A DNA stretch of 64,000 bases from Candidatus Saccharibacteria bacterium QS_5_54_17 (GTDB lineage: Bacteria > Patescibacteriota > Saccharimonadia > QS-5-54-17): assembly GCA_003022365.1 (NCBI GenBank), contig PXOU01000007.1, forward strand, positions 227-64,226, read 5' to 3'. Positions 3,585 through 59,690 of the stretch are shown here, piece after piece. Numbering within the stretch: the stretch's first letter is position 1; the number at the start of each line of letters is the position of its first letter. A model generated the notes under the pieces. It was given only the letters and a program-made list of their open reading frames with translations. It did no database searches and was not told the DNA's origin. Both the position numbers and the translations under genes were made by a program.

Positions 3585-4140
3585 TATCATTCCTGAATAT
3601 GTCATTCCTGAAACAAGTTCAGGACAGGCTCTGAATTTATTTCAGGATCTGGTTTCCGGGTTGGTTTCAGCATAAAAATGATTCCGGATCGGAGTCCGGA
3701 ATGACAGAGAGGGTGACGAAAAAGCAATGTCATCCTGAATTTAGTTCAGGATCTATTTCAAAGCTGATTCCGAAACAAGTTCGGAATGACAGAGGGGGGG
3801 GCGGAATGAACTACCACGCCCTTACGGACGTGGTTTCACTTTAATTCAAGCTCCGCTTGGCCGCTGTCTTCCCGGCCCTGGTATTCGATGTAGTTCCGTA
3901 TGGTCTCTTCATCCACGCCGACGGTGGAGATAGCGTACAATCATGCCTCCATGCTACCGCATGGAGGCAAAGACAGCGGCGGCGCCTTCATCCACGCCCT
4001 TACGGACGTGGTTTTCTTATGGCGGATAAAGAGGATTCGCATTTTTTTCCTTACTTCCTGTTCCCTGTCTCCAGTCTCCAGTCTACTGTCTACCACTTAC
4101 TGCTTACTTCTTGCTGCTTGCTTCCTGCTTCCTTTTCCTG
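3585..4140. repeat. Composite hairpin-repeat block R1. It contains the modules gtcattcctgaaacaagttcaggacaggctctgaa, atttcaggatctg, ggattccggatcggagtccggaatgaca and two copies of ccacgcccttacggacgtgg, ending in a CT-rich cttacttcttgctgcttgcttcc module.
   Basis: The same modules recur at 11 or more other intergenic loci in this window. ORFs 3857-4141 and 3900-4154 lie inside the repeat and are probably spurious. Confidence 0.8.
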
Positions 4141-4197
4141 ACCGGCCATTATGACATGAGCTTTATACCCCGCATCTGATCCGCTATACTGGCGGGC

Positions 4198-5148
4198 ATG
4201 GCTACCTATAAAGTTCCCCAGGATGTCGAAGCCGAAGACAAATTACTGGGGCCGCTGACGTTCAAACAGTTCATTTTCATGCTGATCGCCGGCGGCGGGG
4301 GGCTGCTGGCTTGGCTGATGTGGCAGGTGCACCCGTTCCTGGTGGTGTTACCGCTGCCGATCGTGGTGATATTCGGCGGACTGGCCGTCTTCCGCCGGGA
4401 AGACCAGCCCATGGAGCGGTACTTACTGTCCTTTTTTAACTTTCTGTTGCGGCCGCGCCAACGGGTGTGGAACACCGAAGGGTATTACGAACATCTGGTC
4501 CTCACCAAACCCAAAAAACAGGAGGAAACACCCCTCAAACAGGATGTCCACGAAGTCCATGGCCAATTGGAAAAACTGGCCCAGACGGTCGACACGCGGG
4601 GATGGGCCGCCAAACGTCCGGAGCTGACGGTACCGGACGCCAACCCGGCTATCGGCGCCAGCGGCGACGACCGGTTGTTCAGGCCCGACGAGTCCCAGGA
4701 GCCGGCCGAGGTGCACGAGCGCGAAGACATCATGAGCGAGGAAAACCCCGAAGGCATGCAGCTTGACAATCTGCTACACGAACAAACCCGCCAGCGGCGC
4801 GAGCAAGTGATGGAGAACGTCCGCCGGCAAGCACGTGGTCAAACCCCGGCGGAGGGAGAAACCGTGCCCCAGGCGGACGGGCATCATACCCCGGCTGAGG
4901 TTCCTGCCGCCAGCCCGGCCGCGGAAGCTTCGGAATCCCCGCCATCACCACCGGCTGGGCAGACGGGCAACGACCAGGCGACCGACAACACCGACAATCA
5001 GGCGCCCCAGACCCAGGCACCCGAAACCGCCCAGCAATCTGGTATACTGAACGTGTCTGATGAGTTAAGCGTCAGCCAGATCGCCGCCGCGGCCAACCGG
5101 CAATCCGATGATCGCTTGCAAGAGGGTGAGGAGATACAACTGCGATGA
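4198..5148 (+). CDS. VirB3/PrgI-like small T4SS membrane protein with a long disordered C-terminal extension.
   Basis: The N-terminus LLGPLTFKQFIFMLIAGGGGLLAWL plus a second TM helix matches PrgI/TcpE/VirB3-family topology. It sits immediately upstream of the VirB4-like genes. The C-terminus is P/A/Q/E-rich low complexity. Confidence 0.5.
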   Translation: MATYKVPQDVEAEDKLLGPLTFKQFIFMLIAGGGGLLAWLMWQVHPFLVVLPLPIVVIFGGLAVFRREDQPMERYLLSFFNFLLRPRQRVWNTEGYYEHLVLTKPKKQEETPLKQDVHEVHGQLEKLAQTVDTRGWAAKRPELTVPDANPAIGASGDDRLFRPDESQEPAEVHEREDIMSEENPEGMQLDNLLHEQTRQRREQVMENVRRQARGQTPAEGETVPQADGHHTPAEVPAASPAAEASESPPSPPAGQTGNDQATDNTDNQAPQTQAPETAQQSGILNVSDELSVSQIAAAANRQSDDRLQEGEEIQLR

Positions 5149-8356: not shown

Positions 8357-8725
8357 TCAGCAGACAGTAGACGGTAGACGGCAGACAGGGAGTGAGAAGC
8401 AACAGGCTCTGAAGATGTCATTCCTGAAACAGGTTCAGGACAGGCTCCGAACTTGTTTCAGGATCTATTGCAGAATCTGTTTCAGGATCATGTCTGGTTA
8501 AAGGATTTCGGCTCGGGGGCCGGAATGACAAATAGGTTTTGCATTCTCCCCTTACTTCTTGCTTCTTGCTGCTTGCTTCTTCTTCCCTGTTCCCTGTCTA
8601 CTTCTGTTTTTTGCTTACTTCTTACTTCCTGCTGCTTACTCTCCGTTCCCTGTATGCTGTCTGCTGTCTACCGCCTACTGTTACCTGCTTGCTTCCTATT
8701 CCCGCTGCCGGGAGACTGTTGTGAG
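8357..8725. repeat. Composite repeat block R2 with a MITE-like layout. The left arm is cagcagacagtagacggtagacggcagacagggagtgagaagcaacagg. Internal hairpin modules follow. The right arm is a long CT-rich microsatellite-like module (cttgcttcttgctgcttgcttc...ctgtctgctgtctaccgcctactg) that is roughly the inverted complement of the left arm.
   Basis: Direct reading of the sequence. ORFs 8453-8755 and 8539-8724 inside it are low-complexity and probably spurious. Confidence 0.8.
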
Positions 8726-8815
8726 TGTATAGGCCGCCCTTTCGTGATATGCTAGGGTAAAGGTAAGGATAACAGGTATGATCCCCCCGTCCTGGATGTG
8801 GCAGGAGTATATAAG

Positions 8816-10018
8816 ATGAAACAGATGGTTAAAGTCAAAAAACATCTCCAAAAACATTTCCGCCCGGGCTCCGGCACCGGTAAGTATCGATCGGCTGGGG
8901 TAATGCTGGGAACGGGCGTGTTGGTATTCGCCTCGGTGGTGACACTGCCCGGAGGTGGCCTGACGGCGGCCACCCAGAAGGAGCCCTCCCGAATCGCACT
9001 GGGGTCCTCACACATCGACGCCGAAACCGACATTACCCAGAACAAGAGCGGCAACGGATGTTTTGCCACCACCGCCATCACCATCCGTAACAGCGGAAAA
9101 TTAGCCGATGCCCTGGAGCGCTACGTCGAAAATCACCAACCCGACTCGCCGTTTGCCAACCTGGGAGAGGCTTTGGTCAGCGGAGCCAAGCAGGAGAACG
9201 TCAACCCCATGCTGTTGGTGGGCATCGCCCAAAAAGAAAGCATGCTGGGGACGGCCTGGGGGAGCAATTCGTCCGACAGCTATAACGCCTTCGGGCGCCG
9301 AGCCAAAGAATCCCAGCCCAGTATAGACGGATGGTACCGGTACGACTCCTGGGAGCAAAGTTTGGAGGGAGGAACCGACTTTGATGACATCCCCAATTAC
9401 CTCCGCCGGGTATTCATCGAAAACGGGGCAGTGTCAATCGAGGAATTCGTCAACCAGTACGCCCCTCCCGAGCAGAACGATACCCAGCTTTACCGTCATC
9501 AACTCCGGCAATCGATCGAGGAAATGATCGAACTGGCCGGCGACAGCATCCGCTGCGGCAGCGGCCAAAACTGGATCTGGCCAACCGGGGACGGGGGAGC
9601 CGTGCTCAGCTGCTTTGGTGAACGGGGCGCCCCGCAACCGATCGGCCCCAACAAGCATGCCGGGATCGACATTACCCCGGACGCCGACCCTTACGTATTA
9701 GCCGCCAATAGCGGCGAGGTGATCACCGCCCGCCACACCGGAGCAGCCGGGCTGATCGTCGAAATACAGCACAATGAAAACCTGATCACCCGGTATCATC
9801 ACAACAGCAGCTTGCTGGTGAACGTCGGGGAGACCGTATCGGCCGGGCAACGGATCGCCTACGTGGGCACCAGCGGCAACGCCACCCACCCGCATGTGCA
9901 TTTTGAGATCTCCCGCAACCAGAAAGCAGTCAATCCCGCCCGGGAAATGGATATACCCGGGGCAGTTTCCACCAGCGGCGCTAATTGCGGCGGCAACCAA
10001 GAAAAGGGGTCGTCATGA
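8816..10018 (+). CDS. Secreted or membrane-anchored bifunctional peptidoglycan hydrolase: an N-terminal lysozyme-like (glucosaminidase/SLT-like) domain plus a C-terminal M23 (LytM) endopeptidase. It is a VirB1/PrgK-like accessory.
   Basis: ATG 8816 follows AGGAG by 9 nt. A TM/signal region is present. The motif NPMLLVGIAQKESMLG (E in a lysozyme-like context) is shared with ORFs 32299-35304 and 53628-54344. The M23 motifs are HAGIDI...HHNSS...GNATHPHVHFE. Confidence 0.75.
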   Translation: MKQMVKVKKHLQKHFRPGSGTGKYRSAGVMLGTGVLVFASVVTLPGGGLTAATQKEPSRIALGSSHIDAETDITQNKSGNGCFATTAITIRNSGKLADALERYVENHQPDSPFANLGEALVSGAKQENVNPMLLVGIAQKESMLGTAWGSNSSDSYNAFGRRAKESQPSIDGWYRYDSWEQSLEGGTDFDDIPNYLRRVFIENGAVSIEEFVNQYAPPEQNDTQLYRHQLRQSIEEMIELAGDSIRCGSGQNWIWPTGDGGAVLSCFGERGAPQPIGPNKHAGIDITPDADPYVLAANSGEVITARHTGAAGLIVEIQHNENLITRYHHNSSLLVNVGETVSAGQRIAYVGTSGNATHPHVHFEISRNQKAVNPAREMDIPGAVSTSGANCGGNQEKGSS

Positions 10019-10959
10019 AGAACCGGATATTGGTCGGGGCGATTGCGGGAGGCTTGATACTGGCAACGGCCCTCGTCGTCGCGGTCCAGCTGAATTCCGG
10101 GTCGGAACCCTTTTTCCAGAAAGCCGCCCATGATCACGTCAAACACATGCGGTTCGTGGAACCCAATGTGCTCCAGTACGTCACCCGGGACAACGAGGTT
10201 AAGCGACTCGGAGCGGAAACCTTCCGGACCGAAACCCAAACCCAGGTGAAAGGGTTTCACGTCCGGCTCAGCCCCTCAGGCGAATACGTCAGCCACGCCA
10301 AGGACGGCAAAATACACATCACTACGGTATCCTCGGAGCGGACCAACCACCGGTTGCACGGTTCGCTGCATCGCTGGCAGGACGAGTCATCGCTTATGTA
10401 TATCAAAAACCAATCAAAGCCCTCCGTGTTCCTGGAAGAAGGACAGCTTACCCGGTACCATCTTGAGACTACCAACAAGGACTATGTCATGGACATAGCG
10501 GGCACCGTTATCCATCCGTTGAATTCGTATTCGGGACTGATACTCACCGCGGCCGGCCAGGAGGTAGCCGAGAACGCCCGTTTAACGCTCTACAGTGGCC
10601 GGAAAGAGGCGGAGGTGGCGGTCTCCGATCAACCCATCCAAAGCACGGCCAGCGCTCATGGACTGATGGCTTTCCAGACCCGCGGCGATCCCACCCTGAA
10701 ACTCATCAACCGGCACGGCCGGGTAAAACCGACCGCCATCCAACCGCGGGAAAGTTTGTACCGACCCGTGGATGGGGATACCATCGCCGCCGAGATAACC
10801 AGCGCCGATCAACGGAAAATCGAACTATACGACGTCTCCCAATCGGTGGTGGAAAGACAGCTGCCTCTGGGTGAAGTAGGCGAAGTCATCGACGTGGCGG
10901 CCACGGACAGCTACGTCGCCGTCGCCACCACCAACGGGATATACGTAGGAGCCTTATAG
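10015..10959 (+). CDS. N-terminally TM-anchored extracytoplasmic protein of unknown function (possible T4SS structural component).
   Basis: ATG 10015 follows AAAAGGGG. It has a single N-terminal TM helix, sits in the operon with the hydrolase genes, and its start overlaps the stop of the upstream gene. Confidence 0.5.
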   Translation: MKNRILVGAIAGGLILATALVVAVQLNSGSEPFFQKAAHDHVKHMRFVEPNVLQYVTRDNEVKRLGAETFRTETQTQVKGFHVRLSPSGEYVSHAKDGKIHITTVSSERTNHRLHGSLHRWQDESSLMYIKNQSKPSVFLEEGQLTRYHLETTNKDYVMDIAGTVIHPLNSYSGLILTAAGQEVAENARLTLYSGRKEAEVAVSDQPIQSTASAHGLMAFQTRGDPTLKLINRHGRVKPTAIQPRESLYRPVDGDTIAAEITSADQRKIELYDVSQSVVERQLPLGEVGEVIDVAATDSYVAVATTNGIYVGAL

Positions 10960-10960
10960 T

Positions 10961-11578
10961 ATGATGCGATCCAAAAAACTACTCATCATCGCCGCTGTTA
11001 TCATCTTTCTACTGGCTGCCGTCGCGGCGGTGTATTGGCTGGAATTCCGGAACCAGGAATTCCAGCTGGAGGATACTTCCCCCGGCCAGCAAGTCCGGAT
11101 AGACCGGCTGACTCCCACCATTTCTTTTGACTATAATCAACCCCTCTTTATCCCCGAGGATTTCCGGGTGGTGAGCGATCCGCTCATGGACGCGGAAATA
11201 TACACCCGCGGCGACACGCTGTATCTGGTACCCAACCACGCGCTCCTCCAGCGAGCGGAATACACCCTGACCATACCCCGGATCGAAAGCCAATCCGGCC
11301 AAAGCATAGGTGAACACACCCTTACCTTCCGCACGGACCGGCGACAGTCGTCCCGGCTTGGGTTTATCCGTGACCTGCCGGTGCATAATCCCGGCTACAG
11401 CATCACCTATCTGGAAGATCAGGATGCGTTCGTGGTCCGCATTACCCAAGTGCCGGTAGAAGAAAAGCGGCTACGGGCGCGTAACTATCTGGAGAAGAAC
11501 GGCATTAAACCCGGGCAAAACGACGTTAAATTCGAAATATTGCGCAGCGTGGAAGGGCGGGGCGCTTCAGCGGGATAA
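10961..11578 (+). CDS. Bitopic membrane protein (205 aa) with VirB8-like topology: short cytoplasmic N-terminus, one TM helix, about 170-aa periplasmic domain.
   Basis: Topology only. It is translationally coupled (ATG 2 nt after the upstream stop). There is no sequence-level family match I can assert. Confidence 0.4.
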   Translation: MMRSKKLLIIAAVIIFLLAAVAAVYWLEFRNQEFQLEDTSPGQQVRIDRLTPTISFDYNQPLFIPEDFRVVSDPLMDAEIYTRGDTLYLVPNHALLQRAEYTLTIPRIESQSGQSIGEHTLTFRTDRRQSSRLGFIRDLPVHNPGYSITYLEDQDAFVVRITQVPVEEKRLRARNYLEKNGIKPGQNDVKFEILRSVEGRGASAG

Positions 11579-11584: not shown

Positions 11585-11845
11585 GATGGGGGCAGTTGAC
11601 AGGAAGCAAGGAGCAAGTGGCAAGTGGAAAATGCAAATCCTCTTTGTCATTCCGAACTTGTTTCGGAATCGGCTCTGAAACAGATCCTGAAATAAATTCA
11701 GGATGACAATGGGGGAAGATCCTGAAACAAGCCTGCCTGCCGGCAGGCAGGTTCAGGATGACATTTTCACTACCCCTCTCTGTCATTCCGGCCCCCGAGC
11801 CGGAATCTATTAAACCGAGGTGTTCAATAAGTTCTGTCAAACTAA
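11585..11845. repeat. Composite repeat block R3: purine-rich arm gacaggaagcaaggagcaagtggcaagtgg; hairpin modules including gtcatcctgaacctgcctgccggcaggcaggttcaggatgaca and tgtcattccggcccccgagccggaat; ending with the ggtgttcaataagttctgtca module.
   Basis: Direct sequence comparison with R1, R2, R4-R12. ORF 11526-11840 is probably spurious. Confidence 0.8.
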
Positions 11846-17644: not shown

Positions 17645-18075
17645 CGTATAGTCTCCCGGCAACGGGAATAAGGGAAGTAGATGGTAGACAGCAGACAGAA
17701 AACAGAGAGTGAGAAGCAACAGGCTCTGAACCTGTCATCCTGAACTTGTTTCAGGATCTATTTCAAAACCATCTCGGTTTAATGGATTCCGGATCGGAGT
17801 CCGGAATGACAAAGCGGGTAGCCTGGTAATAACGAATCTTCTATTGTCATCCTGAATTTATTTCAGGATCTGTTTCAGGCTTAGTTTCATAATCATATCG
17901 ACTTAATGGATTCCGACTCGGGGGCCGGAATGACACAGAGGTTTTGCATTTTTTCACTTGCTTCTTGCTTCTTACTGCTTGCTTCTTGTTCCCCTCATCC
18001 GCCTCGTCTCCCGGCTTATTGAACACCCTCACAGTAAACAGCAAGGAGGTGTTCAATAAGTTTCTGTCACATTAA
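17645..18075. repeat. Composite repeat block R4, the clearest MITE-like copy. The left arm is purine-rich (gggaagtagatggtagacagcagacagaaaacagagagtgagaagcaacagg). Two tandem sets of hairpin modules follow. The right arm is a pyrimidine-rich module (cacttgcttcttgcttcttactgcttgcttcttgttcc). It ends with the hairpin cttattgaacacc-N20-ggtgttcaataag.
   Basis: Direct reading of the sequence. The internal modules are duplicated within the element (17705-17815 versus 17840-17945). Confidence 0.8.
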
Positions 18076-20675: not shown

Positions 20676-21017
20676 AATTCATAATCCTTTTATTTACATG
20701 GTTATTATTGCGGTCGTGGAATCTGTGGATAATCGTAATATATTCCTTTTCCAAGCAAAAACAGAACTATTTTCGAAGTGGAGAAATAGCGGAAAAACTT
20801 TGGATAGAGGTGGCGTGTGTTTGCCACAACAGCGACACGACTACCGGAGTTATAAGCGGTGAAATACATCCACCACCTATACACAACCGTTCCCGCCTTT
20901 TCCACATTATTTCCATACCTTTTCCCGAAGGTTTTTAATGTTTGAGGAGCCATAAAACCGGTGTCTCCCGTCACCTGAACACTACCATGAAACAGTTTTG
21001 GGAAAATGAGCCGAGTT
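20676..21017. promoter_or_regulatory. dnaA-dnaN intergenic region with a perfect DnaA box (TGTGGATAA at 20724-20732), weaker box-like sites and AT-rich stretches. It is a probable second origin module or DUE.
   Basis: The consensus TTATCCACA occurs on the complementary strand. The region is AT-rich between the two replication genes. Confidence 0.5.
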
Positions 21018-22869: not shown

Positions 22870-22903
22870 AGGCTTTCATGAGGTGATCCCTTAGGCTTTT
22901 TAT

Positions 22904-24685: not shown

Positions 24686-25060
24686 TATTCCTGAAACCGA
24701 TTCTGAAACTAATCCTGAAACTAATCCTGAAACTGATCCTGAAATAAATTCAGGATGACGTCTTCAGGATGACAGGAACAAGAGCAGGAAGTAAGAAGCA
24801 AGAAGCAAGCGGGGGTCAGTAGACAGGAGACGGTAGACAGGGAACAAAAAACAAAAAGCAGGAAGTAAAGAGGAAGGAGTAAGTTTCGAAATCGGCTCTG
24901 AAATAGATCCTGAAATAAATTCAGGATGACAGTTCTTTTTCGTCACCCTCTCTGTCATTCCGGCCCCTGAGCCGGAATTCAGGCAGCTTTTTATAGATTA
25001 CCTACTGAGGCTTATTACAAAAACTGACGATCGTCAGTAAATGTGATAGCTACGTAAGGA
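24686..25060. repeat. Composite repeat block R5. It has about five tandem ~11-bp units (t)tcctgaaacta, then hairpin modules, a purine-rich arm (ggaagtaagaagcaagaagcaagcgggggtcagtagacaggagacggtagacagg) and tgtcattccggcccctgagccggaat. It ends with the cttattacaaaaactgacgatcgtcagtaaatgtgatagctac module (palindrome at 25024-25037).
   Basis: Direct reading of the sequence. ORF 24764-24958 is probably spurious. Confidence 0.8.
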
Positions 25061-26953: not shown

Positions 26954-27015
26954 GCTCTCCTCAAAAAACTGTTAGAAATGGCGTAAACGATAGTCTATAA
27001 TAAACAGCGTAGTTT

Positions 27016-27810: not shown

Positions 27811-27811
27811 T

Positions 27812-31989: not shown

Positions 31990-32300
31990 TCGCCCACTTG
32001 CAATGTCATCCCGGACTCCGGTCCGGGATCTGTTTCAGGCTTGGTTTCAGAACCGGATTCCTAACCAAGTTCGCAGTGACAAATAGGGTGACGCAAAAGA
32101 ATTGTCATCCTGAATTTATTTCAGGATCTGTTTCAAAACCGGATTCCGAACTAAATTCGCAGTGACAAAGAGGCTCTGCAATTTTTTACTTGCTTCTTGC
32201 TCCTTACTTCCTGCTTCCTGTTCCTGTCATCCTGAACCTGCCTGCCGGCAGGCAGGCTTGTTTCAGGATCCATCTCAGGATCAGCTTCAGCATCCCTCCT
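31990..32300. repeat. Composite repeat block R6: hairpin modules, the CT-rich module tttacttgcttcttgctccttacttcctgcttcctgttcc, and the palindrome gtcatcctgaacctgcctgccggcaggcaggcttgtttcaggat.
   Basis: Direct sequence comparison with the other blocks. Confidence 0.8.
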
Positions 32301-37554: not shown

Positions 37555-37930
37555 AATAGGGACCGGAAGTAGGAAGCAAGCAGTGAGGAGCAACAGACTC
37601 TGAACCTGTCACTGCTGAAACAAGTTCAGGACAGGCTCTGAATTTATTTCAGAATCTATTGCAGAAACGATTCCGAACTAAATTCGCAGTGACAAATGGA
37701 CTTTGCATTCTTCCACTTGCTTCTTACTGCTTACTTCTTGTTCTTGTCATCCTCTTGTCATCCTGAACTTGTTTCAGGATCTGTTTCAGGATCCTTTAGG
37801 AGAACCTCGGAAAGCTGCTACACGTCGTAACAAAGCAGTCTGACTTATTACAAAAAATGACGATCGTCAGCAAATGTAATAGCTACTGGGGTGCGTGAGG
37901 AGGCGGGACGAGATAAGTGGGAAGTAGTAA
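37555..37930. repeat. Composite repeat block R7: a purine arm, hairpin modules and a CT-rich arm, then the tgacttattacaaaaaatgacgatcgtcagcaaatgtaatagctac module at 37841-37886.
   Basis: Direct sequence comparison. The second module matches 25011-25053. Confidence 0.8.
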
Positions 37931-37955
37931 GTAATAAGTAATAAGTGGGAAGTGG

Positions 37956-47394: not shown

Positions 47395-47545
47395 TTAACA
47401 AATGAAACGGATTCTGAAATAAATTCAGGACAGGCTCTGACCCCGATCCGGGATCAGTTTCGGAATCTAATGCTGCAACAGGGAAATTATCCCGAATCAA
47501 GTCCGGGATGACTATTATTTTCGTCATTCCGGACGACGGTCCGGA
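47395..47545. repeat. Short repeat block R8 (aaataaattcaggacaggctctgacc...tgtcattccggacgacggtccggaat).
   Basis: It shares modules with the other blocks. Confidence 0.7.
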
Positions 47546-47546
47546 A

Positions 47547-49943
47547 TCATTTGTGGCAGGCGACGGTTTCACCGCTGTCATAATTCTCAAGCATACCCGA
47601 GCCTATGGTCATGACGTCTTTCCAGCGGAAGCCGGCTTTGGTGTAAGAACGGGGAGTAACGATGTACCGGCGTACATCCGTTGTGCCGTCAGTATCGATA
47701 GCGAATACCTTGGGCGAGTCATCAGTGGTAACAGTGGTGCCGGTGCGGAGTGTCGAAAGCGAATTACCAGAAGTTAGTGCATCAATCTTGCCCTGGCTGA
47801 CTCTCCGAACGTCCCGCCGGCGTTTGTACCCGTGGCTTCCCAGAACGTTCGGGTGGGTGATATAGCGTTTCTTGCCATCTTCTGCTCGGAAGATCCTGTG
47901 TGTGTCACTGGATGTGAATACTAAACCGTCGGGAATGTCCGAACTGGCATAGACGGCAGGGCCGTCGCTGTAGCTATCCAGCCGCCGTTGGCTGACTTGG
48001 TAGGTAGGCGCATCATCGAGGTCGAATGTGTGGTATGCTTTAAGGCTGGAGATATGGCGTTTCACGTAACCGCTACTTGTTTTATCGATAATGAATATCT
48101 TGTTGCCGCTTTTTTGTTTGACGAGAGTCCCTTCACCGATTTTAATAGCATCGCCATCACTTAAATTACTTAATTCCCTCTTGGTAATATTGACTACTTT
48201 ACGGGAGCTGAGACGGTTGCTTCTGATGGCCAACGGGGATGTAAGATGGCGTTTTTTGCCGTTTTCGAGCAGGAAAATCTTACCGTTATCGGGGTTACGA
48301 ATAATTGTGCCGTTGGGCCGGGGATTGTCCGTGTACCCGAAACTGCAGAATACCTTGAGGTGGGTGCCGTAGTGGTTGTTGAAGGTGACGTTGTTTTCGC
48401 TGACCAAGCGCACGCCTTCGTAGTAGCGGCCGAAGGCGCCGCTCGGGCGTGCCCATTTGAACGTGAAGCTGCCGGTTTGCCCGGGGTCGACGCTATTTTC
48501 GTTCAGTACGGCCGGTGTTTGGCTGTCCAACCAGTCCCCGCCTTGGAAGTCGCTGCCCTCGCCCCGCGGACTGTCGGTTTTCAATAGCATTCGGTTAGTG
48601 GAATTGCTCCAGGTTTGGGTACCCGTGTTCTTGAACTCCATGGTGACTTGGGAACTCCTGTCGCCGCTGAGGTCCACCACCTTGAAATTAGTCAGCCGTG
48701 CGGCGTAGCCCCATGGATTATTACTGTTCTTGTCGGCCGTGTCCTGGCGGATGCTGTCCATTTTGTCGTAGAATAAGTCGCCGTTGCAGGTCGTATTGCC
48801 GGCGTCCCGATGGGCGGCGATGGTGGGAAGGTTGAGGCAGTTATTACCGTTTTCATCACAAAACTGGTGTGTGGTTTGGGGGTCGATTTCGAAACTGGTA
48901 GTTTTCCAGGACAGTAAGGTAGAGAGACTGTCCAGCGTGGCATCGGTGGGTGGGGTCACGTTGCCGTCGTTGAGTTCCTGACACGTCGAACTGTCACTTT
49001 GGAAACAGCCCAGTACCGCTACTCCCATGGAGCCTTTATTGTAATCACGGACGTGGCCGGCCCGTACGTGGTCGCCGCCGTAACGCCCCTCATAAATCGT
49101 TCCTTCGTGGTCGAGTAAATAATTGTAGCCGATATCGCCCCAGCCGAGTGTCTTAGCGTGATAGTCCCAAATCGCCCGGACGACTTCTTCGGGATTGGAT
49201 TGTTGATTGGAATGGACCGTGTGGTGGATGAAGATTTGCTCGGTGTCGTTGTACGTCGGGGGCCAGTAAGGACTGTCGCCCTGGAATTTGTCGCCGTTAG
49301 GGTCAGGGCTGTCCCACTCCGAACGCGTTACGATGTTCGGTCCGCCGTTGGCGGCGAATACCTTTTTGCCTAAGGCGGAGACTGCTTCGGTCGCTTTTTG
49401 AATGCCTGATTTGCGGGAATCAAGATAGGTCATTTTCATATCAGTAATCCTGGGCGATGCTTCATCCGGGGAATTCCGTTGTAAGGTAACGCGGTATTGG
49501 AAGTGGCTGCCTTCGAGGAAAATGGGTGTTTCCATGTAGGTTACCCCGGCCATGGGGTCGTTACCGCGTACGGACTTGACGGCATCTATTTCCATCCACC
49601 GCGTCCAGTCTGTGCCATCGCTTGAAACCCGGATTTCCACCGTGCGGTTTTGATTATCGGCTCGTGTTTCTTCCCACATGGGGGCAATGGCGTTGAACGG
49701 GTGGTTGGCTTCCAGTGGCTGGGAGGTTATGGTTTTTTGGGTGTCACGGCCGGAAATTTTCAGAACCGAAGGCCCGTTGTTTACGCCCAACACCTCCTGG
49801 CTGGAGCTTTGAATGCTGGTGTCTAATGGATTGGCAGTGGTCAAGTAGAAACCAGCAGACAGCAGGACAGCAACCACGGCGCCCATAATGATTTTTGATT
49901 TTTTGCTGGCGAACACGGTTTTGAGCGGAAAATGTATGTTCAT
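47547..49943 (-). CDS. Large secreted N-acetylmuramoyl-L-alanine amidase (Amidase_2/PGRP domain) with C-terminal targeting repeats.
   Basis: Signal peptide. The Amidase_2 region IHHTVHSNQ...WGDIGYNYLLDHEGTIYEGR...GHV...NKGSMGVAVLG. Repeats include KIFLLENGKKRHLTSP, KIFIIDKTSSGYVKRHIS and HRIFRAEDGKKRYITHP. Confidence 0.8.
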   Translation of the reverse strand: MNIHFPLKTVFASKKSKIIMGAVVAVLLSAGFYLTTANPLDTSIQSSSQEVLGVNNGPSVLKISGRDTQKTITSQPLEANHPFNAIAPMWEETRADNQNRTVEIRVSSDGTDWTRWMEIDAVKSVRGNDPMAGVTYMETPIFLEGSHFQYRVTLQRNSPDEASPRITDMKMTYLDSRKSGIQKATEAVSALGKKVFAANGGPNIVTRSEWDSPDPNGDKFQGDSPYWPPTYNDTEQIFIHHTVHSNQQSNPEEVVRAIWDYHAKTLGWGDIGYNYLLDHEGTIYEGRYGGDHVRAGHVRDYNKGSMGVAVLGCFQSDSSTCQELNDGNVTPPTDATLDSLSTLLSWKTTSFEIDPQTTHQFCDENGNNCLNLPTIAAHRDAGNTTCNGDLFYDKMDSIRQDTADKNSNNPWGYAARLTNFKVVDLSGDRSSQVTMEFKNTGTQTWSNSTNRMLLKTDSPRGEGSDFQGGDWLDSQTPAVLNENSVDPGQTGSFTFKWARPSGAFGRYYEGVRLVSENNVTFNNHYGTHLKVFCSFGYTDNPRPNGTIIRNPDNGKIFLLENGKKRHLTSPLAIRSNRLSSRKVVNITKRELSNLSDGDAIKIGEGTLVKQKSGNKIFIIDKTSSGYVKRHISSLKAYHTFDLDDAPTYQVSQRRLDSYSDGPAVYASSDIPDGLVFTSSDTHRIFRAEDGKKRYITHPNVLGSHGYKRRRDVRRVSQGKIDALTSGNSLSTLRTGTTVTTDDSPKVFAIDTDGTTDVRRYIVTPRSYTKAGFRWKDVMTIGSGMLENYDSGETVACHK

Positions 49944-49974: not shown

Positions 49975-50235
49975 TTATTCCTGCCTACCCTCTTTGTCAT
50001 TCCGAACCCTCTCCGTCACTCCTAACCCCATCCGTCATTCCGAATTTATTTCGGAATCCGGTCCTGAAATAGATCCTGAAATAAATTCAGGATGACAAAG
50101 AGAAAATTCATTATTACGAGGCTACCCTCTCTGTCATTCCGGCCACCGAGCCGGGATCCATTAACCCGATATGATTCTGAAACGGATCCTGAAACAAGTT
50201 CAGGATGACATCCGGAGCCGGGTCCGGGATAACAA
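49975..50235. repeat. Composite repeat block R9.
   Basis: It contains tgtcattccgaa..., cggtcctgaaatagatcctgaaataaattcaggatgaca, tgtcattccggccaccgagccgggat and gatcctgaaacaagttcaggatgaca. Confidence 0.8.
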
Positions 50236-53274: not shown

Positions 53275-53560
53275 ACTTTGGCGTTTTCCTTTTTTCTGTC
53301 ATCCCGGACCCCGCCCGCACTGAGCCTGTCCGCATTGGGCGGACAAGGTCGAAGTGATCCGGGACCGGTTTCAGGATCGGTTTCAGAACTGGATTCCGAA
53401 CCAAGCCTGCCTACCGGCAAGGCAGGTTCGGAATGACAAAAAGGTTTTGCATTTTTCCACTTGCTTCTTACTTCTTACTGATTGCTTCTTATTCCTGTCA
53501 TTCCTGAAACAAGTTCAGGACAGGCTATGACCCCGATCCGGGATCCGTTTCAGGATCTAC
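53275..53560. repeat. Composite repeat block R10.
   Basis: It contains tgtcatcccggaccccgcc, the ggattccgaaccaagcctgcctaccggcaaggcaggttcggaatgaca palindrome, the CT-rich module cacttgcttcttacttcttactgattgcttcttattcc and tgtcattcctgaaacaagttcaggacaggct. Confidence 0.8.
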
Positions 53561-54384: not shown

Positions 54385-54700
54385 TAACCGATAATTCTGA
54401 ACGGAATCTGATCTGAAAAGATCCTGAAACAAGCCTGCCTGCCGGCAGGCAGGTTCAGGATGACAGGTTCAGGTGCGAAACTCACAAAAACATTATTGCA
54501 AGGACCGTCCTTGCAATACATAAATTGCCGCATAAGCTTTTGTTTAGCCAATCTTGCAAGGACGGTCCTTGCAATTGCGTGTCACGTCTTCCACTTACTT
54601 CTTACTGCTTACTGCTTGCTTCTTGTTCTTTGTTCCCTCTTTGTCATTCCGGCCGCCGAGCCGGAATCCAAGCAATCCAATTGGAATCTAAAAAAGTTTT
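54385..54700. repeat. Composite repeat block R11 plus two inverted copies of the 21-bp palindrome TTGCAAGGACCGTCCTTGCAA (54495-54515 and 54553-54574) upstream of rmlA.
   Basis: Direct reading of the sequence. The CT-rich module runs 54596-54640 and the tgtcattccggccgccgagccggaat hairpin follows. Confidence 0.8.
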
Positions 54701-55626: not shown

Positions 55627-56628
<1,002 letters not shown>

Positions 56629-57747: not shown

Positions 57748-59414
57748 ATCCTGATGAGAAAGACTCCACTTCCACGGAAGCTGAACGAGAGCAAAAAGAA
57801 GAATCGTCCGGTCCGGAAAAAAGCCAGCAGTATAATGCTGCCGTGTCTTTGTTAAAAAAACCGATGCATAAATGGCGTGAGCTTACCCCTAAGGCCAAAC
57901 TGCTGAGTGCCGTTGGTGTGATAGTGTTACTTTCGTTGTTAGTGTTCGTGATACCCTCGGCGCGGTACGCCGCACTCAATCTTACCATGGGTACACAGAC
58001 GGTCGAGGTGTTCGTCGTAGATAAAAAGACCCAGCAACCGATCGATAAAGCCAATATCCAGTTCGGCGATACTATGGGCGAGACCGATGAAGAAGGAAGA
58101 GCGATATTGGAAGGGGTGGATTTCGGTCCCCGGCAGATTACCGTGGAAAAAGGGGCTTACGCGGATTTTAGCGGACAGTACACCGTTGATTTCAGGGTGG
58201 ATTTTTTCGGCCCTGTCGAACTTGAGCCGACAGGAGTCCCGCTTAAAATCCGAGCGGTTAATAAAATTTCAAAAACGAGTATCGATGATTTTCAAGTCGC
58301 GCTTAAAGGGTCGGAATTAAGCGCTCGTTCGAATGATAACGGAATTGCAGAATTAAGCGCCCCGCCTCCGGCGGAACGCGAGGTGGACGTTACCGTAACG
58401 GCTGACGGTTACTGGGAAAAAACATTCACGACCGAACTCCGGCTTGAACGAGAGTCATCTAAACCCGGCGTGGTAGAAGTTGTTCCTGAGGGCAAGCATT
58501 ACTTCCTTTCAAACAGAACTGGCACGATAGACTTGGTGGAGGCGAATCTGGATGGTTCAGAAAGAACCGTGGTCGTAGAAGGAACCGGTGATGAAAAACC
58601 GGGTACGCAATTCAAGGTATCTCCGGGCGGGGACTGTGGTGCCATGATCTCAACACGGGCCGGAGAACGCGGCCCATCAGGCGATTTATTGCCTGCTTTA
58701 TACATAGTCAATTTCCAGCAACGCACGATTGAACGGGTGGATGAAGGAGCTCCAAGTTTTCAACCGATCGGCTGGTCGGGAAATCAATTTATTTACCAGA
58801 TCAATTACCGGGACGCTGGACGCGAAGGCAATCAAAAGCTCAAATCCGTTGATACTGCGAGCAATAACGCTCTTGAAACCTATGTTGTTACAAAAGGGTA
58901 CTTCCAGGGGGTTACTCTTTTGCAAGATAAGCTTCTGTATAGCTTGACGCAAAACGAGCGTGAAAAGATAGGCACGTTCCGGATCGATGTGGACAATGGT
59001 TCGGAAAAACAAGTGATTGATACATCCTCCCACCGGACTAAGATTACTGGCGCGAAAACGGCTATTTATCAGGATGATAACGGTGTGGAATACGAATATT
59101 CCGCCGAAAGCGATAGCGTCAATGAATTACAGCAACCGTCGGAGTCCGTGGCCGGTTCGGACTTTACGGTTTCCGGCAAAGGAAAAGTCGCCTGGATAGA
59201 AACCAGGGACGGCACCCGGACTTTGATCGTGGAAGGAACCGCGGTAACTAAAGAAGTGAACGTGAGCGATATTCTACGTTGGCATGGCGAGGATTATATT
59301 ATTTATCACTCTACCAAGGACGGCTCGACTGATTACATCGTTCATGTGGATAGTCAGCAATCACTCGAGATAAGTGATACGTATGAACGTACTTCCCGCC
59401 GTCATCATTATTGA
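57735..59414 (+). CDS. TM-anchored extracytoplasmic protein with a PEGA/CarboxypepD_reg-like domain plus a probable beta-propeller; paralogue-like to 16417-17640.
   Basis: N-terminal TM. The beta-sandwich signature QTVEVFVVDKKTQQPIDKANIQFGDTMGETDEEGRAIL. TolB-like segments. Confidence 0.5.
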   Translation: MAQLDPDEKDSTSTEAEREQKEESSGPEKSQQYNAAVSLLKKPMHKWRELTPKAKLLSAVGVIVLLSLLVFVIPSARYAALNLTMGTQTVEVFVVDKKTQQPIDKANIQFGDTMGETDEEGRAILEGVDFGPRQITVEKGAYADFSGQYTVDFRVDFFGPVELEPTGVPLKIRAVNKISKTSIDDFQVALKGSELSARSNDNGIAELSAPPPAEREVDVTVTADGYWEKTFTTELRLERESSKPGVVEVVPEGKHYFLSNRTGTIDLVEANLDGSERTVVVEGTGDEKPGTQFKVSPGGDCGAMISTRAGERGPSGDLLPALYIVNFQQRTIERVDEGAPSFQPIGWSGNQFIYQINYRDAGREGNQKLKSVDTASNNALETYVVTKGYFQGVTLLQDKLLYSLTQNEREKIGTFRIDVDNGSEKQVIDTSSHRTKITGAKTAIYQDDNGVEYEYSAESDSVNELQQPSESVAGSDFTVSGKGKVAWIETRDGTRTLIVEGTAVTKEVNVSDILRWHGEDYIIYHSTKDGSTDYIVHVDSQQSLEISDTYERTSRRHHY

Positions 59415-59690
59415 GCCTTCTTTGTCACTGCGAACTTGGTTCGGAATCTCATTCTGCAACAGGGAAACGATCCCGGATCACTTCGACCTTGCTCAGTGCG
59501 GGTGGGGTCCGGGATGACAATTATTTTTCGTCACCCTCTCTGTCATTCCGGCCGCCGAGCCGGGATCCATTAAGCCGATAAGATTCTGAAACTGATTCTG
59601 AAGCTGATGCTAAAACCGATCCTGAAACAAGCCTGCCTGTCGGCAGACAGGTTCAGGATGACACATTCAGGAATGATATTTAGTCCAATT
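59415..59690. repeat. Composite repeat block R12.
   Basis: It contains tgtcactgcgaacttggttcggaatc, tgtcattccggccgccgagccgggat, tandem ~12-bp gattctgaaact units and the gatcctgaaacaagcctgcctgtcggcagacaggttcaggatgaca palindrome. Confidence 0.8.

What the first reader, a model, noticed from the sequence alone, without database searches (positions are those of the whole stretch)
3585..59690. One modular hairpin-repeat family fills almost every intergenic gap (at least 12 loci, about 4 kb)
The blocks lie at 3585-4140, 8357-8725, 11585-11845, 17645-18075, 24686-25060, 31990-32300, 37555-37930, 47395-47545, 49975-50235, 53275-53560, 54385-54700 and 59415-59690. All are built from the same small vocabulary of modules. 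(a) caggctctgaa(c)ctgtcatcctgaacttgtttcaggat, which is itself a hairpin. (b) gatcctgaaataaattcaggatgaca. (c) tgtcattccggcc(c/g)ccgagccggaat and ggattccggatcggagtccggaatgaca. (d) the perfect palindrome gtcatcctgaacctgcctgccggcaggcaggttcaggatgaca. (e) a polypyrimidine ~10-bp-period module cttgcttcttgcttcttactgcttgcttc, or its purine complement. The modules occur in shuffled order and orientation. The density (about 6% of the window) and strict confinement to gaps between genes recall REP/BIME or MITE families. I do not recognise this combination of modules. Candidate functions include transcription terminators or insulators, structured small RNAs, a recombination scaffold, or non-autonomous transposons.
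Basis: seen in the sequence. Interest (0 to 1): 0.75.

Follow-up and report, generated by a model that had tools for sequence, protein, structure and literature searches.

The report
Tagged hairpin (REP) repeat arrays
The gaps downstream of genes in this tiny Saccharimonadales (candidate-phyla-radiation) genome hold arrays of a known bacterial hairpin repeat, the CGTC/TGTC-tagged REP; it is an unusually dense case of a known kind, not a new one.

Summary
The core observation is real. All 12 blocks share repeats far beyond chance, and two more blocks lie on the 5 kb of the contig beyond the window.

Several details are wrong:
- Repeats fill 12 of 28 gaps, not almost all.
- They avoid gaps between divergent genes.
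- The polypyrimidine module has a 7-nt period, not 10.
- Module (d) as written does not exist.

The core unit is an oriented hairpin: (T/C)GTC tag, 8-bp stem starting with AT, 5-6 nt loop (sometimes with a nested palindrome), then a C. Units mostly form head-to-head dimers, reiterated with conserved linkers and flanked by purine and pyrimidine heptamer runs that pair across a block.

This matches the CGTC/TGTC-tagged REP superfamily (Di Nocera 2013; the CCTGAA type resembles CGTC-2). That superfamily includes Neisseria dRS3/NTS, the single-stranded-DNA target of the GIY-YIG nuclease SsnA (Nat Commun 2025).

A ~90% identical relative has the family in the same gaps but with different units. Relatives at 65-76% have none.

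Best reading: BIME/NIME-like mosaics of Ssn-type hairpins, turned over by single-stranded-DNA processing and recombination. No ssn gene lies on the 69 kb available. Verdict: new member of a known kind.

The parts
3540..4140 (.). Block 1: edge module, 4 tagged hairpins, nested IS200-relic, pyrimidine heptamer run
8357..8725 (.). Block 2: purine heptamer arm, hairpins, 12-nt units, long pyrimidine heptamer arm; folds as one long hairpin (z -7.2)
11585..11845 (.). Block 3: purine run plus 4 hairpins (one with nested palindrome)
17645..18075 (.). Block 4: purine arm, two head-to-head dimers joined by a linker, pyrimidine arm, TTGAACACC hairpin; fold z -3.65
24686..25060 (.). Block 5: 12-nt half-hairpin array, 3 hairpins, purine heptamer runs
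31990..32300 (.). Block 6: 3 intact and 2 degenerate hairpins, pyrimidine run, nested palindrome
37555..37955 (.). Block 7: purine run, degenerate hairpins, pyrimidine run, A-type hairpin, TGACGATCGTCA hairpin, AAGTAAT heptamers
47395..47549 (.). Block 8: short block with a tag-to-tag (TT) hairpin pair
49975..50235 (.). Block 9: 19-nt tandem tag/5'-arm repeats plus two head-to-head dimers
53275..53560 (.). Block 10: two long-loop hairpins, pyrimidine run, degenerate A' hairpin
54385..54700 (.). Block 11: long A hairpin, TTGCAAGGACSGTCCTTGCAA pair, pyrimidine run, C-type hairpin
59415..59745 (.). Block 12: long E and long A hairpins, C-type hairpin, 12-nt array, edge module
3601..3628 (+). Hairpin A' (TGTCAT-TCCTGAA-ACAAG-TTCAGGA, degenerate closing pair)
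3679..3705 (-). Hairpin D-type (TGTC-ATTCCGGA-6-TCCGGAAT-C)
3729..3754 (+). Hairpin A-type (TGTC-ATCCTGAA-5-TTCAGGAT-C)
3765..3790 (-). Hairpin B-type (TGTC-ATTCCGAA-5-TTCGGAAT-C)
8417..8444 (+). Hairpin A'
8503..8529 (-). Hairpin C-type (TGTC-ATTCCGGC-6-GCCGGAAT-C), 1 mismatch
11646..11671 (+). Hairpin B-type
11682..11707 (-). Hairpin A-type
11717..11762 (-). Long A-type hairpin with nested palindrome CCTGCCTGCCGGCAGGCAGG in the loop
   Evidence: (D13, D19)
11782..11808 (+). Hairpin C-type
17734..17759 (+). Hairpin A-type
17784..17810 (-). Hairpin D-type (head-to-head partner of 17734)
17846..17871 (+). Hairpin A-type
17908..17934 (-). Hairpin C-type (head-to-head partner of 17846)
24734..24759 (-). 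Hairpin A-type (CGTC tag), followed by the 12-nt array
24905..24930 (-). Hairpin A-type
24954..24980 (+). Hairpin C-type
32005..32031 (+). Hairpin E-type (TGTC-ATCCCGGA-6-TCCGGGAT-C)
32104..32129 (+). Hairpin A-type
32226..32271 (+). Long A-type hairpin with nested palindrome
37757..37782 (+). Hairpin A-type
47487..47512 (-). Hairpin E-type, AGTC tag, 1 mismatch
47523..47549 (+). Hairpin D-type (CGTC tag)
50034..50059 (+). Hairpin B-type (CGTC tag)
50071..50096 (-). Hairpin A-type
50133..50159 (+). Hairpin C-type
50184..50209 (-). Hairpin A-type
53298..53367 (+). Long E-type hairpin with a 49-nt structured insert in the loop
53391..53437 (-). Long B-type hairpin with a variant of the nested palindrome
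53497..53524 (+). Hairpin A'
54419..54464 (-). Long A-type hairpin with nested palindrome
54643..54669 (+). Hairpin C-type
59468..59518 (-). Long E-type hairpin (30-nt loop insert)
59542..59568 (+). Hairpin C-type
59617..59662 (-). Long A-type hairpin with nested palindrome (2 substitutions)
4039..4140 (+). Pyrimidine heptamer run (CTTACTT/CTTGCTT/CTCCAGT)
   Evidence: (D1, D7)
8359..8400 (+). Purine heptamer run (AGACRGY), pairs with 8640-8711
   Evidence: (D11)
8544..8711 (+). Pyrimidine heptamer runs (CTTGCTT x5 and relatives)
11595..11624 (+). Purine heptamer run
   Evidence: D16
17676..17715 (+). Purine heptamer run
   Evidence: D11
17950..18001 (+). Pyrimidine heptamer run (CTTGCTT x4.6)
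24780..24883 (+). Purine heptamer runs (CAAGAAG)
   Evidence: (D16)
32175..32226 (+). Pyrimidine heptamer run
37709..37760 (+). Pyrimidine heptamer run
53446..53497 (+). Pyrimidine heptamer run
54587..54638 (+). Pyrimidine heptamer run (CTTACTT x4.4)
24689..24744 (+). Tandem 12-nt array (TCCTGAAACTAA x4.7): reiterated hairpin arm plus tail
59582..59628 (+). Tandem 12-nt array (GATTCTGAAACT x3.9)
49987..50044 (+). Tandem 19-nt array of tag plus 5' arm (ACCCTCTCCGTCATTCCGA x3.1)

Best explanation
The blocks are BIME/NIME-like mosaic clusters of CGTC/TGTC-tagged REP hairpins, in a Saccharimonadales (Patescibacteria) genome.

Anatomy (shown):
- The elementary unit is an oriented DNA hairpin: (T/C)GTC tag, 8-bp stem starting with AT, 5-6 nt loop (or a long loop with a nested palindrome), then a C.
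- Units are mostly paired head-to-head with tags outward and a 10-50 nt spacer.
- Dimers are reiterated with conserved linkers.
- Arrays are bracketed by purine and pyrimidine heptamer runs, so a whole block can fold into one long hairpin.

Mechanism (inferred):
- The hairpins are recognised as single-stranded DNA by a small GIY-YIG Ssn-type nuclease encoded elsewhere in the genome. In Neisseria, SsnA binds the NTS hairpin and cuts a few nucleotides upstream of the tag.
- Such nicking, together with slippage and ectopic recombination between units, creates, moves and deletes units.
- The arrays persist only downstream of genes, where they do no harm.
- By analogy with Neisseria, they would mark incoming or exposed single-stranded DNA for cleavage. 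That would modulate recombination of the flanking surface, secretion-system and glycan gene cassettes.
For: Family features
- All 20 perfect AT-stem hairpins carry GTC on exactly one side, and 19 of 20 carry C right after the stem.
- Tags are TGTC 21, CGTC 3, AGTC 2.
- The stem is kept through compensatory changes: 99.3% of cells paired, 4 of 8 pairs changed on both sides, 0 of 500 shuffles as good.
- Head-to-head dimers predominate.
- Blocks sit in co-directional and convergent gaps only.
- These are the defining features of CGTC REPs in PMC3733652. Its CGTC-2 example peptide RHSELVSGS corresponds to the CCTGAA/TCTGAA-type hairpin.

Link to Ssn
- The paper states that Neisseria dRS3 is CGTC-1.
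- PMC11893778 shows that NTS (CGTCATTCCCGCG..GCGGGAATC) is bound and cut by SsnA as single-stranded DNA only.
- The 3 nt upstream of the palindrome matter most for cutting, and the C after the palindrome for binding. Both positions are conserved here.
- In locus L078 (Psychrosphaera), a 96-aa single-domain GIY-YIG gene (Pfam E 2.7e-16) is flanked on both sides by CGTC-ATCCTGAC hairpins. It also has tandem half-hairpin arrays like those in the window.

Turnover
- A relative about 90% identical in DNA (L121) has the family in the same gaps, but with whole-unit gains, losses and swaps.
- A ~135-nt module in one L121 gap lies at a non-orthologous block in the window, at 93-96% identity.
- Relatives at 65-76% identity (L123, L124) have no hairpins, and their orthologous gaps are 57 nt or absent.

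Breadth
- The same hairpin occurs in more than 119 genomes of many phyla.
Against: - No GIY-YIG gene is present in the 69 kb available, in the relatives' loci, or in 118 of the 119 other loci.
- The published degenerate SRM search string gives 0 hits in the window, because the stems differ.
- SsnA recognition depends on stem sequence as well as shape. A cognate nuclease for the CCTGAA/TCCGGC stems is therefore assumed, not shown.
- Ssn has been shown to cut, not to copy or transpose repeats. How CGTC REPs spread is unknown (PMC3733652).
- The heptamer runs and linkers have no place in the published Ssn model.
- Only one Ssn-flanking example (L078) was seen here.
- Unit-number differences between assemblies could partly be assembly error.
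Confidence: 0.6

Rival explanations
1. REPIN-like doublets mobilised in trans by a Y1 HUH transposase (a RAYT or IS200/IS605 TnpA), as for GTAG REPs in gamma-proteobacteria.
For: - The elements are hairpin doublets in inverted orientation with a conserved 5' tetranucleotide, as in REP/RAYT systems.
- A C-terminal relic of an IS200/IS605 TnpA, including the Tyr region, lies inside block 1.
Against: - The tag is (T/C)GTC, not GTAG/GTGG.
- Di Nocera et al. found no tyrosine-transposase gene flanked by CGTC REPs in any species.
- The relic has its own, different terminal hairpins (CCACGCCCTTACGGACGTGG at 3814 and 3992, found nowhere else in the window). It therefore looks like an IS that inserted into a REP cluster.
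- No intact Y1 gene was found in the 45 largest ORFs scanned against Pfam or in the Pfam calls for the contig's called genes.
Confidence: 0.15
2. Purely cis-acting RNA elements (3' stabilisers, terminators or insulators) kept by selection at gene ends, with no dedicated DNA-level enzyme. Arrays would change only by slippage and recombination.
For: - The blocks lie strictly downstream of genes, and promoter-like sites sit between a block and the next gene.
- The folds are strong.
- REPs have been proposed to act as RNA elements.
Against: - The asymmetric conserved flanks (GTC on one side, C on the other) and the identity of the hairpin sequence across phyla are not needed for a stabiliser hairpin.
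- Blocks occur in both orientations relative to the upstream gene.
- The hairpins lack T-tails, and the terminator scan is not enriched at them.
- There is no Rfam match.
- Relatives with the same genes do without the blocks.
Confidence: 0.12
3. Composite MITEs derived from a DDE-type insertion sequence. The purine and pyrimidine heptamer arms would be long terminal inverted repeats, and whole blocks would be the mobile unit.
For: - The left purine arm pairs with the right pyrimidine arm over 40-60 nt.
- Similar arms recur in several blocks (D1, D11).
Against: - Blocks differ in length, module order and content.
- Several blocks have only one arm or none.
- Differences from L121 are internal unit changes, not presence or absence of whole blocks.
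- No matching transposase gene was found.
- Target-site duplications were not systematically looked for.
Confidence: 0.05

Closest known systems
CGTC-tagged REP superfamily, especially family CGTC-2 (Di Nocera, De Gregorio & Rocco 2013, PMC3733652)
   Same: - One-sided CGTC/TGTC tag.
- 8-bp stem beginning with AT.
- 5-nt loop in the A and B types.
- C-rich 3-nt tail.
- Head-to-head heterodimers with 20-100 bp spacers.
- Position between co-directional and convergent ORFs.
- No flanked transposase gene.
- The paper's CGTC-2 peptide RHSELVSGS corresponds to the same hairpin sequence type.
   Different: - The paper did not report this host phylum (Patescibacteria); its five phyla are Proteobacteria, Chlorobi, Bacteroidetes, Spirochaetes and Thermotogae.
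- 11 of 25 units have 6-nt loops, and 7 have long nested loops.
- Units are almost all clustered, whereas clusters are rare for CGTC REPs except in Neisseria and Wolbachia.
- The units are tightly associated with heptamer runs and conserved linkers.
Neisseria NTS/dRS3 and Ssn-related motifs (SRM) with the GIY-YIG single-stranded-DNA nuclease SsnA (Nat Commun 2025, PMC11893778)
   Same: - Oriented hairpin with CGTCAT upstream and C downstream, the two positions that matter for cutting and binding.
- Clustering around particular genes.
- Large expansions in symbiotic bacteria.
- Near-identical hairpins flank a GIY-YIG gene in L078.
   Different: - The stem sequences differ, and the published SRM search string finds nothing here.
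- No ssn gene was seen on the 69 kb contig.
- Nuclease activity was not tested.
Neisseria intergenic mosaic elements (NIMEs) and E. coli BIMEs
   Same: - Intergenic mosaics in which REP-type hairpins alternate in orientation with other conserved short motifs.
- Variable unit number between strains.
- Location at the 3' ends of transcription units (the NIME description is from my own knowledge of Parkhill et al. 2000).
   Different: - The non-hairpin modules are unrelated in sequence.
- BIMEs use GTAG REPs and RAYT.
- Density here is about 6% of the sequence. From my own memory, not measured here, that is higher than in E. coli or Neisseria.
REPIN-RAYT systems (Bertels & Rainey 2011)
   Same: Inverted hairpin doublets act as the apparent unit, and the family is lineage-restricted and expanded.
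   Different: - The tag is different.
- The doublets are heterodimers that do not pair with each other.
- No RAYT was found.
Cyanobacterial STRR heptamer repeats (own knowledge, Mazel et al. 1990)
   Same: Tandem heptanucleotide repeats located in intergenic DNA.
   Different: - The heptamer sequences differ.
- Here the runs are strand-asymmetric (purine or pyrimidine), attached to REP tags, and paired as inverted arms.

Membership tests
CGTC-tagged REP superfamily (PMC3733652) | Unpaired CGTC (or TGTC/CCTC) tag at one end only | tested here: met
   An untagged hairpin search found that 20 of 20 perfect AT-stem hairpins have GTC on exactly one side. Tags are TGTC 21, CGTC 3, AGTC 2.
CGTC-tagged REP superfamily (PMC3733652) | Stem of 8-9 bp with complementary A and T at stem positions 1 and 2 | tested here: met
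   All 25 intergenic units have 8-bp stems beginning with AT and closing with AT. Paired cells are 99.3%, with compensatory changes at 4 of 8 pairs.
CGTC-tagged REP superfamily (PMC3733652) | Loop of 4-5 nt | tested here: inconclusive
   14 units have a 5-nt loop (A and B types) and 11 have 6 nt (C, D and E types). Seven more have 25-49 nt loops with nested stems. In other genomes the same hairpin has 5-nt loops in 196 of 221 cases.
CGTC-tagged REP superfamily (PMC3733652) | Short unpaired 3' tail, consensus CCA | tested here: met
   24 of 26 tails start with C. The commonest are CTA, CTG and CCA, 5 each.
CGTC-tagged REP superfamily (PMC3733652) | Head-to-head dimers predominate (bodies facing, tags outward) | tested here: met
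   At least 9 head-to-head pairs, for example 17734/17810, 17846/17934, 50034/50096 and 50133/50209. Only a few are tag-to-tag, such as 47512/47523.
CGTC-tagged REP superfamily (PMC3733652) | Located between co-directional and convergent ORFs, downstream of coding regions | tested here: met
   Repeats occupy 0 of 8 divergent gaps and 12 of 20 other gaps. By my own hand hypergeometric calculation, P is about 0.004. The caveat is the doubtful 87-aa ORF at 3148-3411.
CGTC-tagged REP superfamily (PMC3733652) | No transposase gene flanked by the repeats | tested here: met
   No intact transposase was found in the 45 largest ORFs scanned against Pfam or in the precomputed Pfam calls for the contig's called genes. 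The only trace is an IS200 relic with different ends.
Ssn-related motif / NTS (PMC11893778) | Match to the published search string HGTCWYN(0-2)YYVSBRHN(0-5)WNVSBRGN(0-2)RNCYNB | tested here: not met
   There are 0 matches on either strand, against a simulated mean of 0.34. The stems CCTGAA, TCCGGC and TCCGGA fall outside YYVSBRH.
Ssn-related motif / NTS (PMC11893778) | Conserved GTC just upstream of the palindrome (cleavage determinant) and C just after it (binding determinant) | tested here: met
   GTC is present in 20 of 20 hairpins and the 3' C in 19 of 20.
Ssn-related motif / NTS (PMC11893778) | A cd10448 GIY-YIG (ssn) gene in the same genome, typically flanked by the motif | not testable with these tools
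   None was found in the 69 kb contig or in the relatives' loci, but more than 90% of the genome is not available. L078, from another phylum, shows the expected arrangement with ATCCTGAC hairpins.
Ssn-related motif / NTS (PMC11893778) | Strand-specific cleavage of single-stranded DNA by the nuclease | not testable with these tools
   This needs a biochemical assay.
REPIN/RAYT (GTAG REPs) | GTAG/GTGG guide tetranucleotide 5' of the hairpin | tested here: not met
   The tag is (T/C)GTC in all units.
REPIN/RAYT (GTAG REPs) | A RAYT gene flanked by the REPs (REPtron) | tested here: inconclusive
   No RAYT is present in 69 kb. The IS200-type relic in block 1 has its own hairpin ends. The rest of the genome was not seen.
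BIME/NIME-type mosaic | Clusters of REPs in alternating orientation, interleaved with other conserved short motifs; unit number variable between strains | tested here: met
   Conserved linkers, a leader, an edge module and heptamer runs recur between hairpins. Unit number and order differ from L121.
DDE-type MITE | Fixed terminal inverted repeats with target-site duplications; presence or absence of whole elements | tested here: inconclusive
   Heptamer arms pair in some blocks, but blocks are heterogeneous. Differences from L121 are internal. Target-site duplications were not searched systematically.
CRISPR array | Regularly spaced identical direct repeats with unique spacers | tested here: not met
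   Repeats are inverted and irregularly spaced. Tandem Repeats Finder shows only 7-, 12-, 14- and 19-nt micro-arrays.
Known structured RNA (Rfam 15) | A covariance-model match | tested here: not met
   No hit at gathering score over the window. Only chance-level hits appear in block 1 at E up to 1.

The most novel reading that the evidence does not exclude
In an ultra-small, host-dependent Saccharimonadales lineage, an Ssn-type hairpin family has recently expanded into composite 'super-hairpin' elements. These consist of a purine heptamer arm, reiterated head-to-head hairpin dimers, and a pyrimidine heptamer arm. They would behave as a distinct mobile or recombinogenic cassette boundary. By directing single-stranded-DNA cleavage during DNA uptake, they would control exchange of secretion-system, cell-wall and glycan gene cassettes. 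One example is the 3-gene insert at 8798-11578, bounded by blocks 2 and 3 and absent from L123 and L124.
Probability: 0.15. Interest if true: 0.6.

Novelty: new member of a known kind. Interest (0 to 1): 0.38.

Why it matters
- It extends the CGTC/TGTC-tagged REP (NTS/SRM-type) hairpins to Patescibacteria. The Di Nocera survey did not list that phylum, and neither Patescibacteria nor Saccharibacteria is mentioned in the main text of the Ssn paper (its supplementary data could not be read).
- It shows a recent, lineage-specific expansion to about 6% of the sequence, in a genome type usually considered streamlined.
- The Ssn authors noted that the largest expansions occur in symbionts, and an epibiotic Saccharimonadales fits that pattern.
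- From my own knowledge (not tested here), Saccharibacteria take up DNA and are naturally transformable. The Neisseria model, in which hairpins mark incoming single-stranded DNA for cutting and so shape recombination of neighbouring genes, is therefore directly testable in this group.
- For annotation, these arrays create spurious ORFs and can break short-read assemblies.

Tried and rejected
- **Rfam.** A scan of the whole window at gathering score and of block 1 at E up to 1 gave nothing useful.
- **tRNA/tmRNA.** None found.
- **IS200 relic, profile searches.** Pfam and PDB searches with the 34-aa relic found nothing. tblastn against plasmids identified it.
- **Shared neighbour gene.** All-against-all BLASTP of ORFs within 1.5 kb of the hairpin in 119 loci found no common family.
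- **Literature by sequence.** Searching for the hairpin sequence returned only unrelated primers.
- **Metagenome scan.** A lineage-specific 33-nt pattern returned only 3 unrelated loci.
- **GIY-YIG gene.** Regex, tblastn and jackhmmer searches of the window and all loci found only L078.
- **Heptamer runs in other genomes.** The test for whether they accompany the hairpin elsewhere was not significant: 2 near against 18 far.
- **Terminator and promoter scan.** Too noisy to assign terminator function.
- **Ssn paper supplements.** None are held as text.
- **Rejected readings.** CRISPR (no regular spacing), structured small RNA, and assembly artefact. The same arrays appear in independent JGI and Logan assemblies, L121 and L122.

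Full report
**Source and organism**

The window is bases 249-64248 of a 69,427-bp metagenome contig (ENA ERZ27230158, k119_113951). It carries:
- rnpA-yidC-jag, dnaA, dnaN, recF and dciA;
- a PrgI/TraC-like/VirB4-like/TrbL-like secretion cluster with M23 and SLT cell-wall hydrolases;
- a large glycosyltransferase, sulfotransferase and ABC-transporter region.

DnaN is 61% identical to proteins that NCBI labels Candidatus Saccharimonadales. I therefore take the organism to be a Saccharimonadales (Patescibacteria) bacterium.

Yes, in its core.
- The repeat finder returned many families of 3-15 copies that fall almost only in the 12 stated blocks.
- TCCTGAA/TTCAGGA occurs 55 times, 49 of them inside the blocks.
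- Repeated 11-mers cover 23-57% of those 12 gaps and 0-12% of every other gap.
- Perfect 8-bp hairpins number 42, against 4.2 expected.

Four details are wrong.
- Only 12 of 28 gaps of at least 30 nt are occupied.
- Module (d), written as a 43-nt perfect palindrome, has no match even with six edits.
- Module (e) has a period of 7, not about 10.
- The module list is incomplete.

Two further blocks lie in the 5 kb of the contig beyond the window.

The arrays are not an assembly artefact. A related organism shows them in two independent assemblies, one from JGI and one from Logan.

**Anatomy**

The elementary unit is an oriented hairpin: a (T/C)GTC tag, an 8-bp stem that always starts with AT and closes with AT, a loop, then a C.
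- I found 25 clean intergenic units with 5-6 nt loops and about 35 when long-loop and slightly degenerate units are included.
- Five stem types occur: ATCCTGAA (A), ATTCCGAA (B), ATTCCGGC (C), ATTCCGGA (D) and ATCCCGGA (E).
- Pairing is kept by changes on both sides at 4 of 8 positions. Paired cells are 99.3%, and no shuffle or register shift comes close.
- In a search that ignored the tag, all 20 perfect AT-stem hairpins carried GTC on exactly one side, and 19 of 20 had C immediately after the stem. The unit is therefore asymmetric although its body is palindromic.
- Seven units carry inserts in the loop. Five have the palindrome CCTGCCTGCCGGCAGGCAGG or a variant placed after CAAG. Two have a longer structured insert.

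Units are mostly arranged with bodies facing and tags outward (for example 17734/17810, 17846/17934, 50034/50096 and 50133/50209). The partners are usually of different stem type. Spacers often contain 12-nt reiterations of the 3' arm plus tail.

Dimers are joined by conserved linkers (GAGAGGGTGACGAAAAAG four times; AGAGGTTTTGCATTTTT six times).

Outside the tags lie purine-rich heptamer runs on one side and pyrimidine-rich runs on the other. When blocks 2 and 4 are folded as single strands, these arms pair with each other and enclose the hairpins (z -7.2 and -3.65).

**Where the blocks sit**

None of the 8 gaps between divergent genes holds a block. Five of 6 convergent gaps and 7 of 14 co-directional gaps do. 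By my own hand hypergeometric calculation, the chance of missing all divergent gaps is about 0.004.

There is one caveat. The gene caller of the source also called an unsupported 87-aa ORF at 3148-3411 on the minus strand. If it is a real gene, block 1 lies in a divergent gap.

Promoter-like sites upstream of the genes at 4198 and 11906 lie between the block and the gene. Blocks occur in both orientations relative to the upstream gene.

**Relatives**

Three syntenic loci were recovered through DnaN homologs.
- L121 is 89-93% identical in DNA (98% in DnaN). It has the same family in the same three gaps, but with different content.
- The window has one extra dimer plus linker in the dciA gap.
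- L121 has five more units in the gap after the 1068-aa gene.
- A ~135-nt module in that L121 gap matches window block 11, a non-orthologous site, at 93-96% identity.
- L123 and L124 are 65-76% identical in DNA (84% and 76% in DnaN). They have no tagged hairpins in 12 and 21 kb, and their orthologous gaps are 57 nt or an overlap.

The family therefore expanded in this lineage and its arrays are still turning over.

The three genes at 8798-11578 are bounded by blocks 2 and 3. They are missing from L123 and L124, where the large gene abuts the VirB4-like gene.

**Beyond this lineage**

The hosts include Sphingomonadales, Bacteroidota, Treponema, Gastranaerophilales, Elusimicrobiota and several candidate-phyla groups.

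In those loci the hairpin usually occurs once or as one head-to-head pair with a related partner. Tags are TGTC 104 and CGTC 96, loops are 5 nt in 196 of 221 cases, and tails are C-rich. No protein family is shared among the neighbouring ORFs.

**What is known**

*Di Nocera et al. 2013 (PMC3733652).* They defined the CGTC-tagged REP superfamily with these features:
- a tag often changed to TGTC;
- stems of 8-9 bp with A and T at the first two positions;
- loops of 4-5 nt and short tails near CCA;
- head-to-head dimers predominant ('head' meaning the body);
- heterodimers in CGTC-2 and CGTC-3;
- location between co-directional and convergent ORFs;
- no associated transposase;
- clusters rare except in Neisseria and Wolbachia;
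- Neisseria dRS3 counted as CGTC-1.

Their supplementary list gives RHSELVSGS as a CGTC-2 insert. That is the translation of a CGTCATTCTGAACTTGTTTCAGGATC-type hairpin, the same as the A type here, which reads CHPELVSGS.

*A 2025 paper (PMC11893778).* It showed the following:
- The longer oriented form of dRS3 is NTS, CGTCATTCCCGCGMAVGCGGGAATCYRG.
- NTS is bound and cut by the 94-aa GIY-YIG protein SsnA, as single-stranded DNA only and on one strand only.
- The three bases upstream of the palindrome matter most for cutting.
- The C after the palindrome matters most for binding.
- Homologs across phyla are flanked by related hairpins (SRM).
- 81% of genomes with more than 200 SRM have an ssnA homolog.
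- The largest expansions are in symbionts.
- In Neisseria the system reduces integration of transforming DNA that carries the hairpins.

**Interpretation**

*Shown.* The hairpin modules meet the structural definition of CGTC/TGTC-tagged REPs. The blocks are mosaics of the BIME/NIME type.

*Inferred.* They are targets of an Ssn-type nuclease. The support is:
- Both experimentally critical flanking positions are conserved here.
- In L078 (Psychrosphaera), a 96-aa single-domain GIY-YIG gene (Pfam E 2.7e-16) is flanked on both sides by CGTC-ATCCTGAC hairpins.
- That gene is accompanied by tandem half-hairpin arrays like those in the window.

The evidence against is:
- The published SRM search string finds nothing here.
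- SsnA recognition is sensitive to stem sequence.
- No GIY-YIG gene lies on the 69 kb or in the relatives' loci.
- The way CGTC REPs multiply is unknown.

My estimates are about 0.9 that these are CGTC/TGTC-tagged REP mosaics, and about 0.5-0.6 that an Ssn-type enzyme is their partner.

**Rivals**

- *A Y1 transposase (RAYT or IS200).* This is suggested by a 34-aa C-terminal TnpA relic at 3836-3940 on the minus strand. That relic sits between its own direct hairpins at 3814 and 3992, which occur nowhere else in the window. It is therefore better read as an insertion sequence that landed in a REP cluster and decayed.
- *A purely RNA-level role.* This fits the position of the blocks, but not the asymmetric DNA flanks, the conservation across phyla, or the absence of the blocks from relatives.
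- *A DDE-type MITE.* This fits the paired heptamer arms, but not the heterogeneity of the blocks.

**Verdict**

This is a real and striking feature that belongs to a known kind. Three things are new: the host group, the density (about 35 units and about 4 kb in 64 kb), and the lineage-specific mosaic of heptamer arms, linkers and nested palindromes. The role of those extra modules is unexplained.

Noticed in passing
window 3810-4015 (ORF 3836-3940 minus strand; hairpins 3814-3833 and 3992-4011): A ~200-bp deletion derivative of an IS200/IS605-type element lies inside block 1. It keeps a 34-aa C-terminal TnpA relic, up to 62% identical to annotated tnpA genes. It is bracketed by two identical direct hairpins (CCACGCCCTTACGGACGTGG) that occur nowhere else in the window.
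   Followed up: partly
window 8798-11578, compared with L123 9137-9258 and L124 17585-17625: A three-gene cassette (M23 peptidase plus two unknown proteins) is bounded by repeat blocks 2 and 3. It is absent from the two more distant relatives, where the large unknown gene abuts the VirB4-like gene. It is present in the close relative L121.
   Followed up: partly
window 25191-31986 versus L121 1-5600: The glycosyltransferase, methyltransferase and nucleotidyltransferase region next to block 5 is largely replaced between the window and its ~90% identical relative. Only a 69% identical ABC-transporter fragment aligns. This looks like a variable surface-glycan island next to a repeat block.
   Followed up: no
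window 20676-21017 and 22392-22903: The two long gaps flanking dnaA (342 and 512 nt) contain no tagged hairpins. They are likely replication-origin and promoter regions. DnaA boxes were not searched.
   Followed up: no
window 25025-25036 and 37858-37869: An identical palindrome, TGACGATCGTCA, is embedded in similar AT-rich inverted repeats (TTACAAAAA...TTTGTAA). It occurs in two convergent gaps just beyond the REP arrays and may be a bidirectional terminator.
   Followed up: no
window 18019-18056, 11819-11827, 59754-59762; L128 about 16660: A separate hairpin family (CTTATTGAACACC...GGTGTTCAATAAG, stem of about 14 bp) recurs at the outer edge of several blocks next to gene ends.
   Followed up: no
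window 54496-54574; L121 18985-19100: A pair of TTGCAAGGACSGTCCTTGCAA palindromes about 58 nt apart forms a module. It sits in block 11 of the window but in a different, non-orthologous gap in L121, at 93-96% identity.
   Followed up: yes
window 35986-36072: Degenerate fragments of the family (TGTCATTTCTGAAGATGTCATCCGCC...GTCTCCCGGC) lie in one divergent gap. This is the only trace of the family outside the 12 blocks.
   Followed up: no
L078 5900-6900 (Psychrosphaera sp. chromosome OZ244904.1): A 96-aa GIY-YIG gene is flanked by CGTC-ATCCTGAC hairpins. Nearby are arrays of CGTCATTGCGGCGTAGGCCGAAATC hairpins and four tandem 14-nt half-hairpin units. This is the hairpin-nuclease-hairpin layout described for ssnA.
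   Followed up: partly
Genome-contig loci L002-L120: The identical 24-nt hairpin occurs in more than 119 species from many phyla. Period-7 tandem repeats are the commonest tandem period in these loci (20 runs, against 5 or fewer for other periods apart from 14), although they are not significantly close to the hairpins.
   Followed up: partly
window 3148-3411 (minus strand) and 3229-3253: An 87-aa ORF called by the source's gene finder has no family match. It contains a perfect GC-rich hairpin followed by T-rich sequence, so it may be a terminator region and not a gene. This affects whether block 1 counts as lying in a divergent gap.
   Followed up: no
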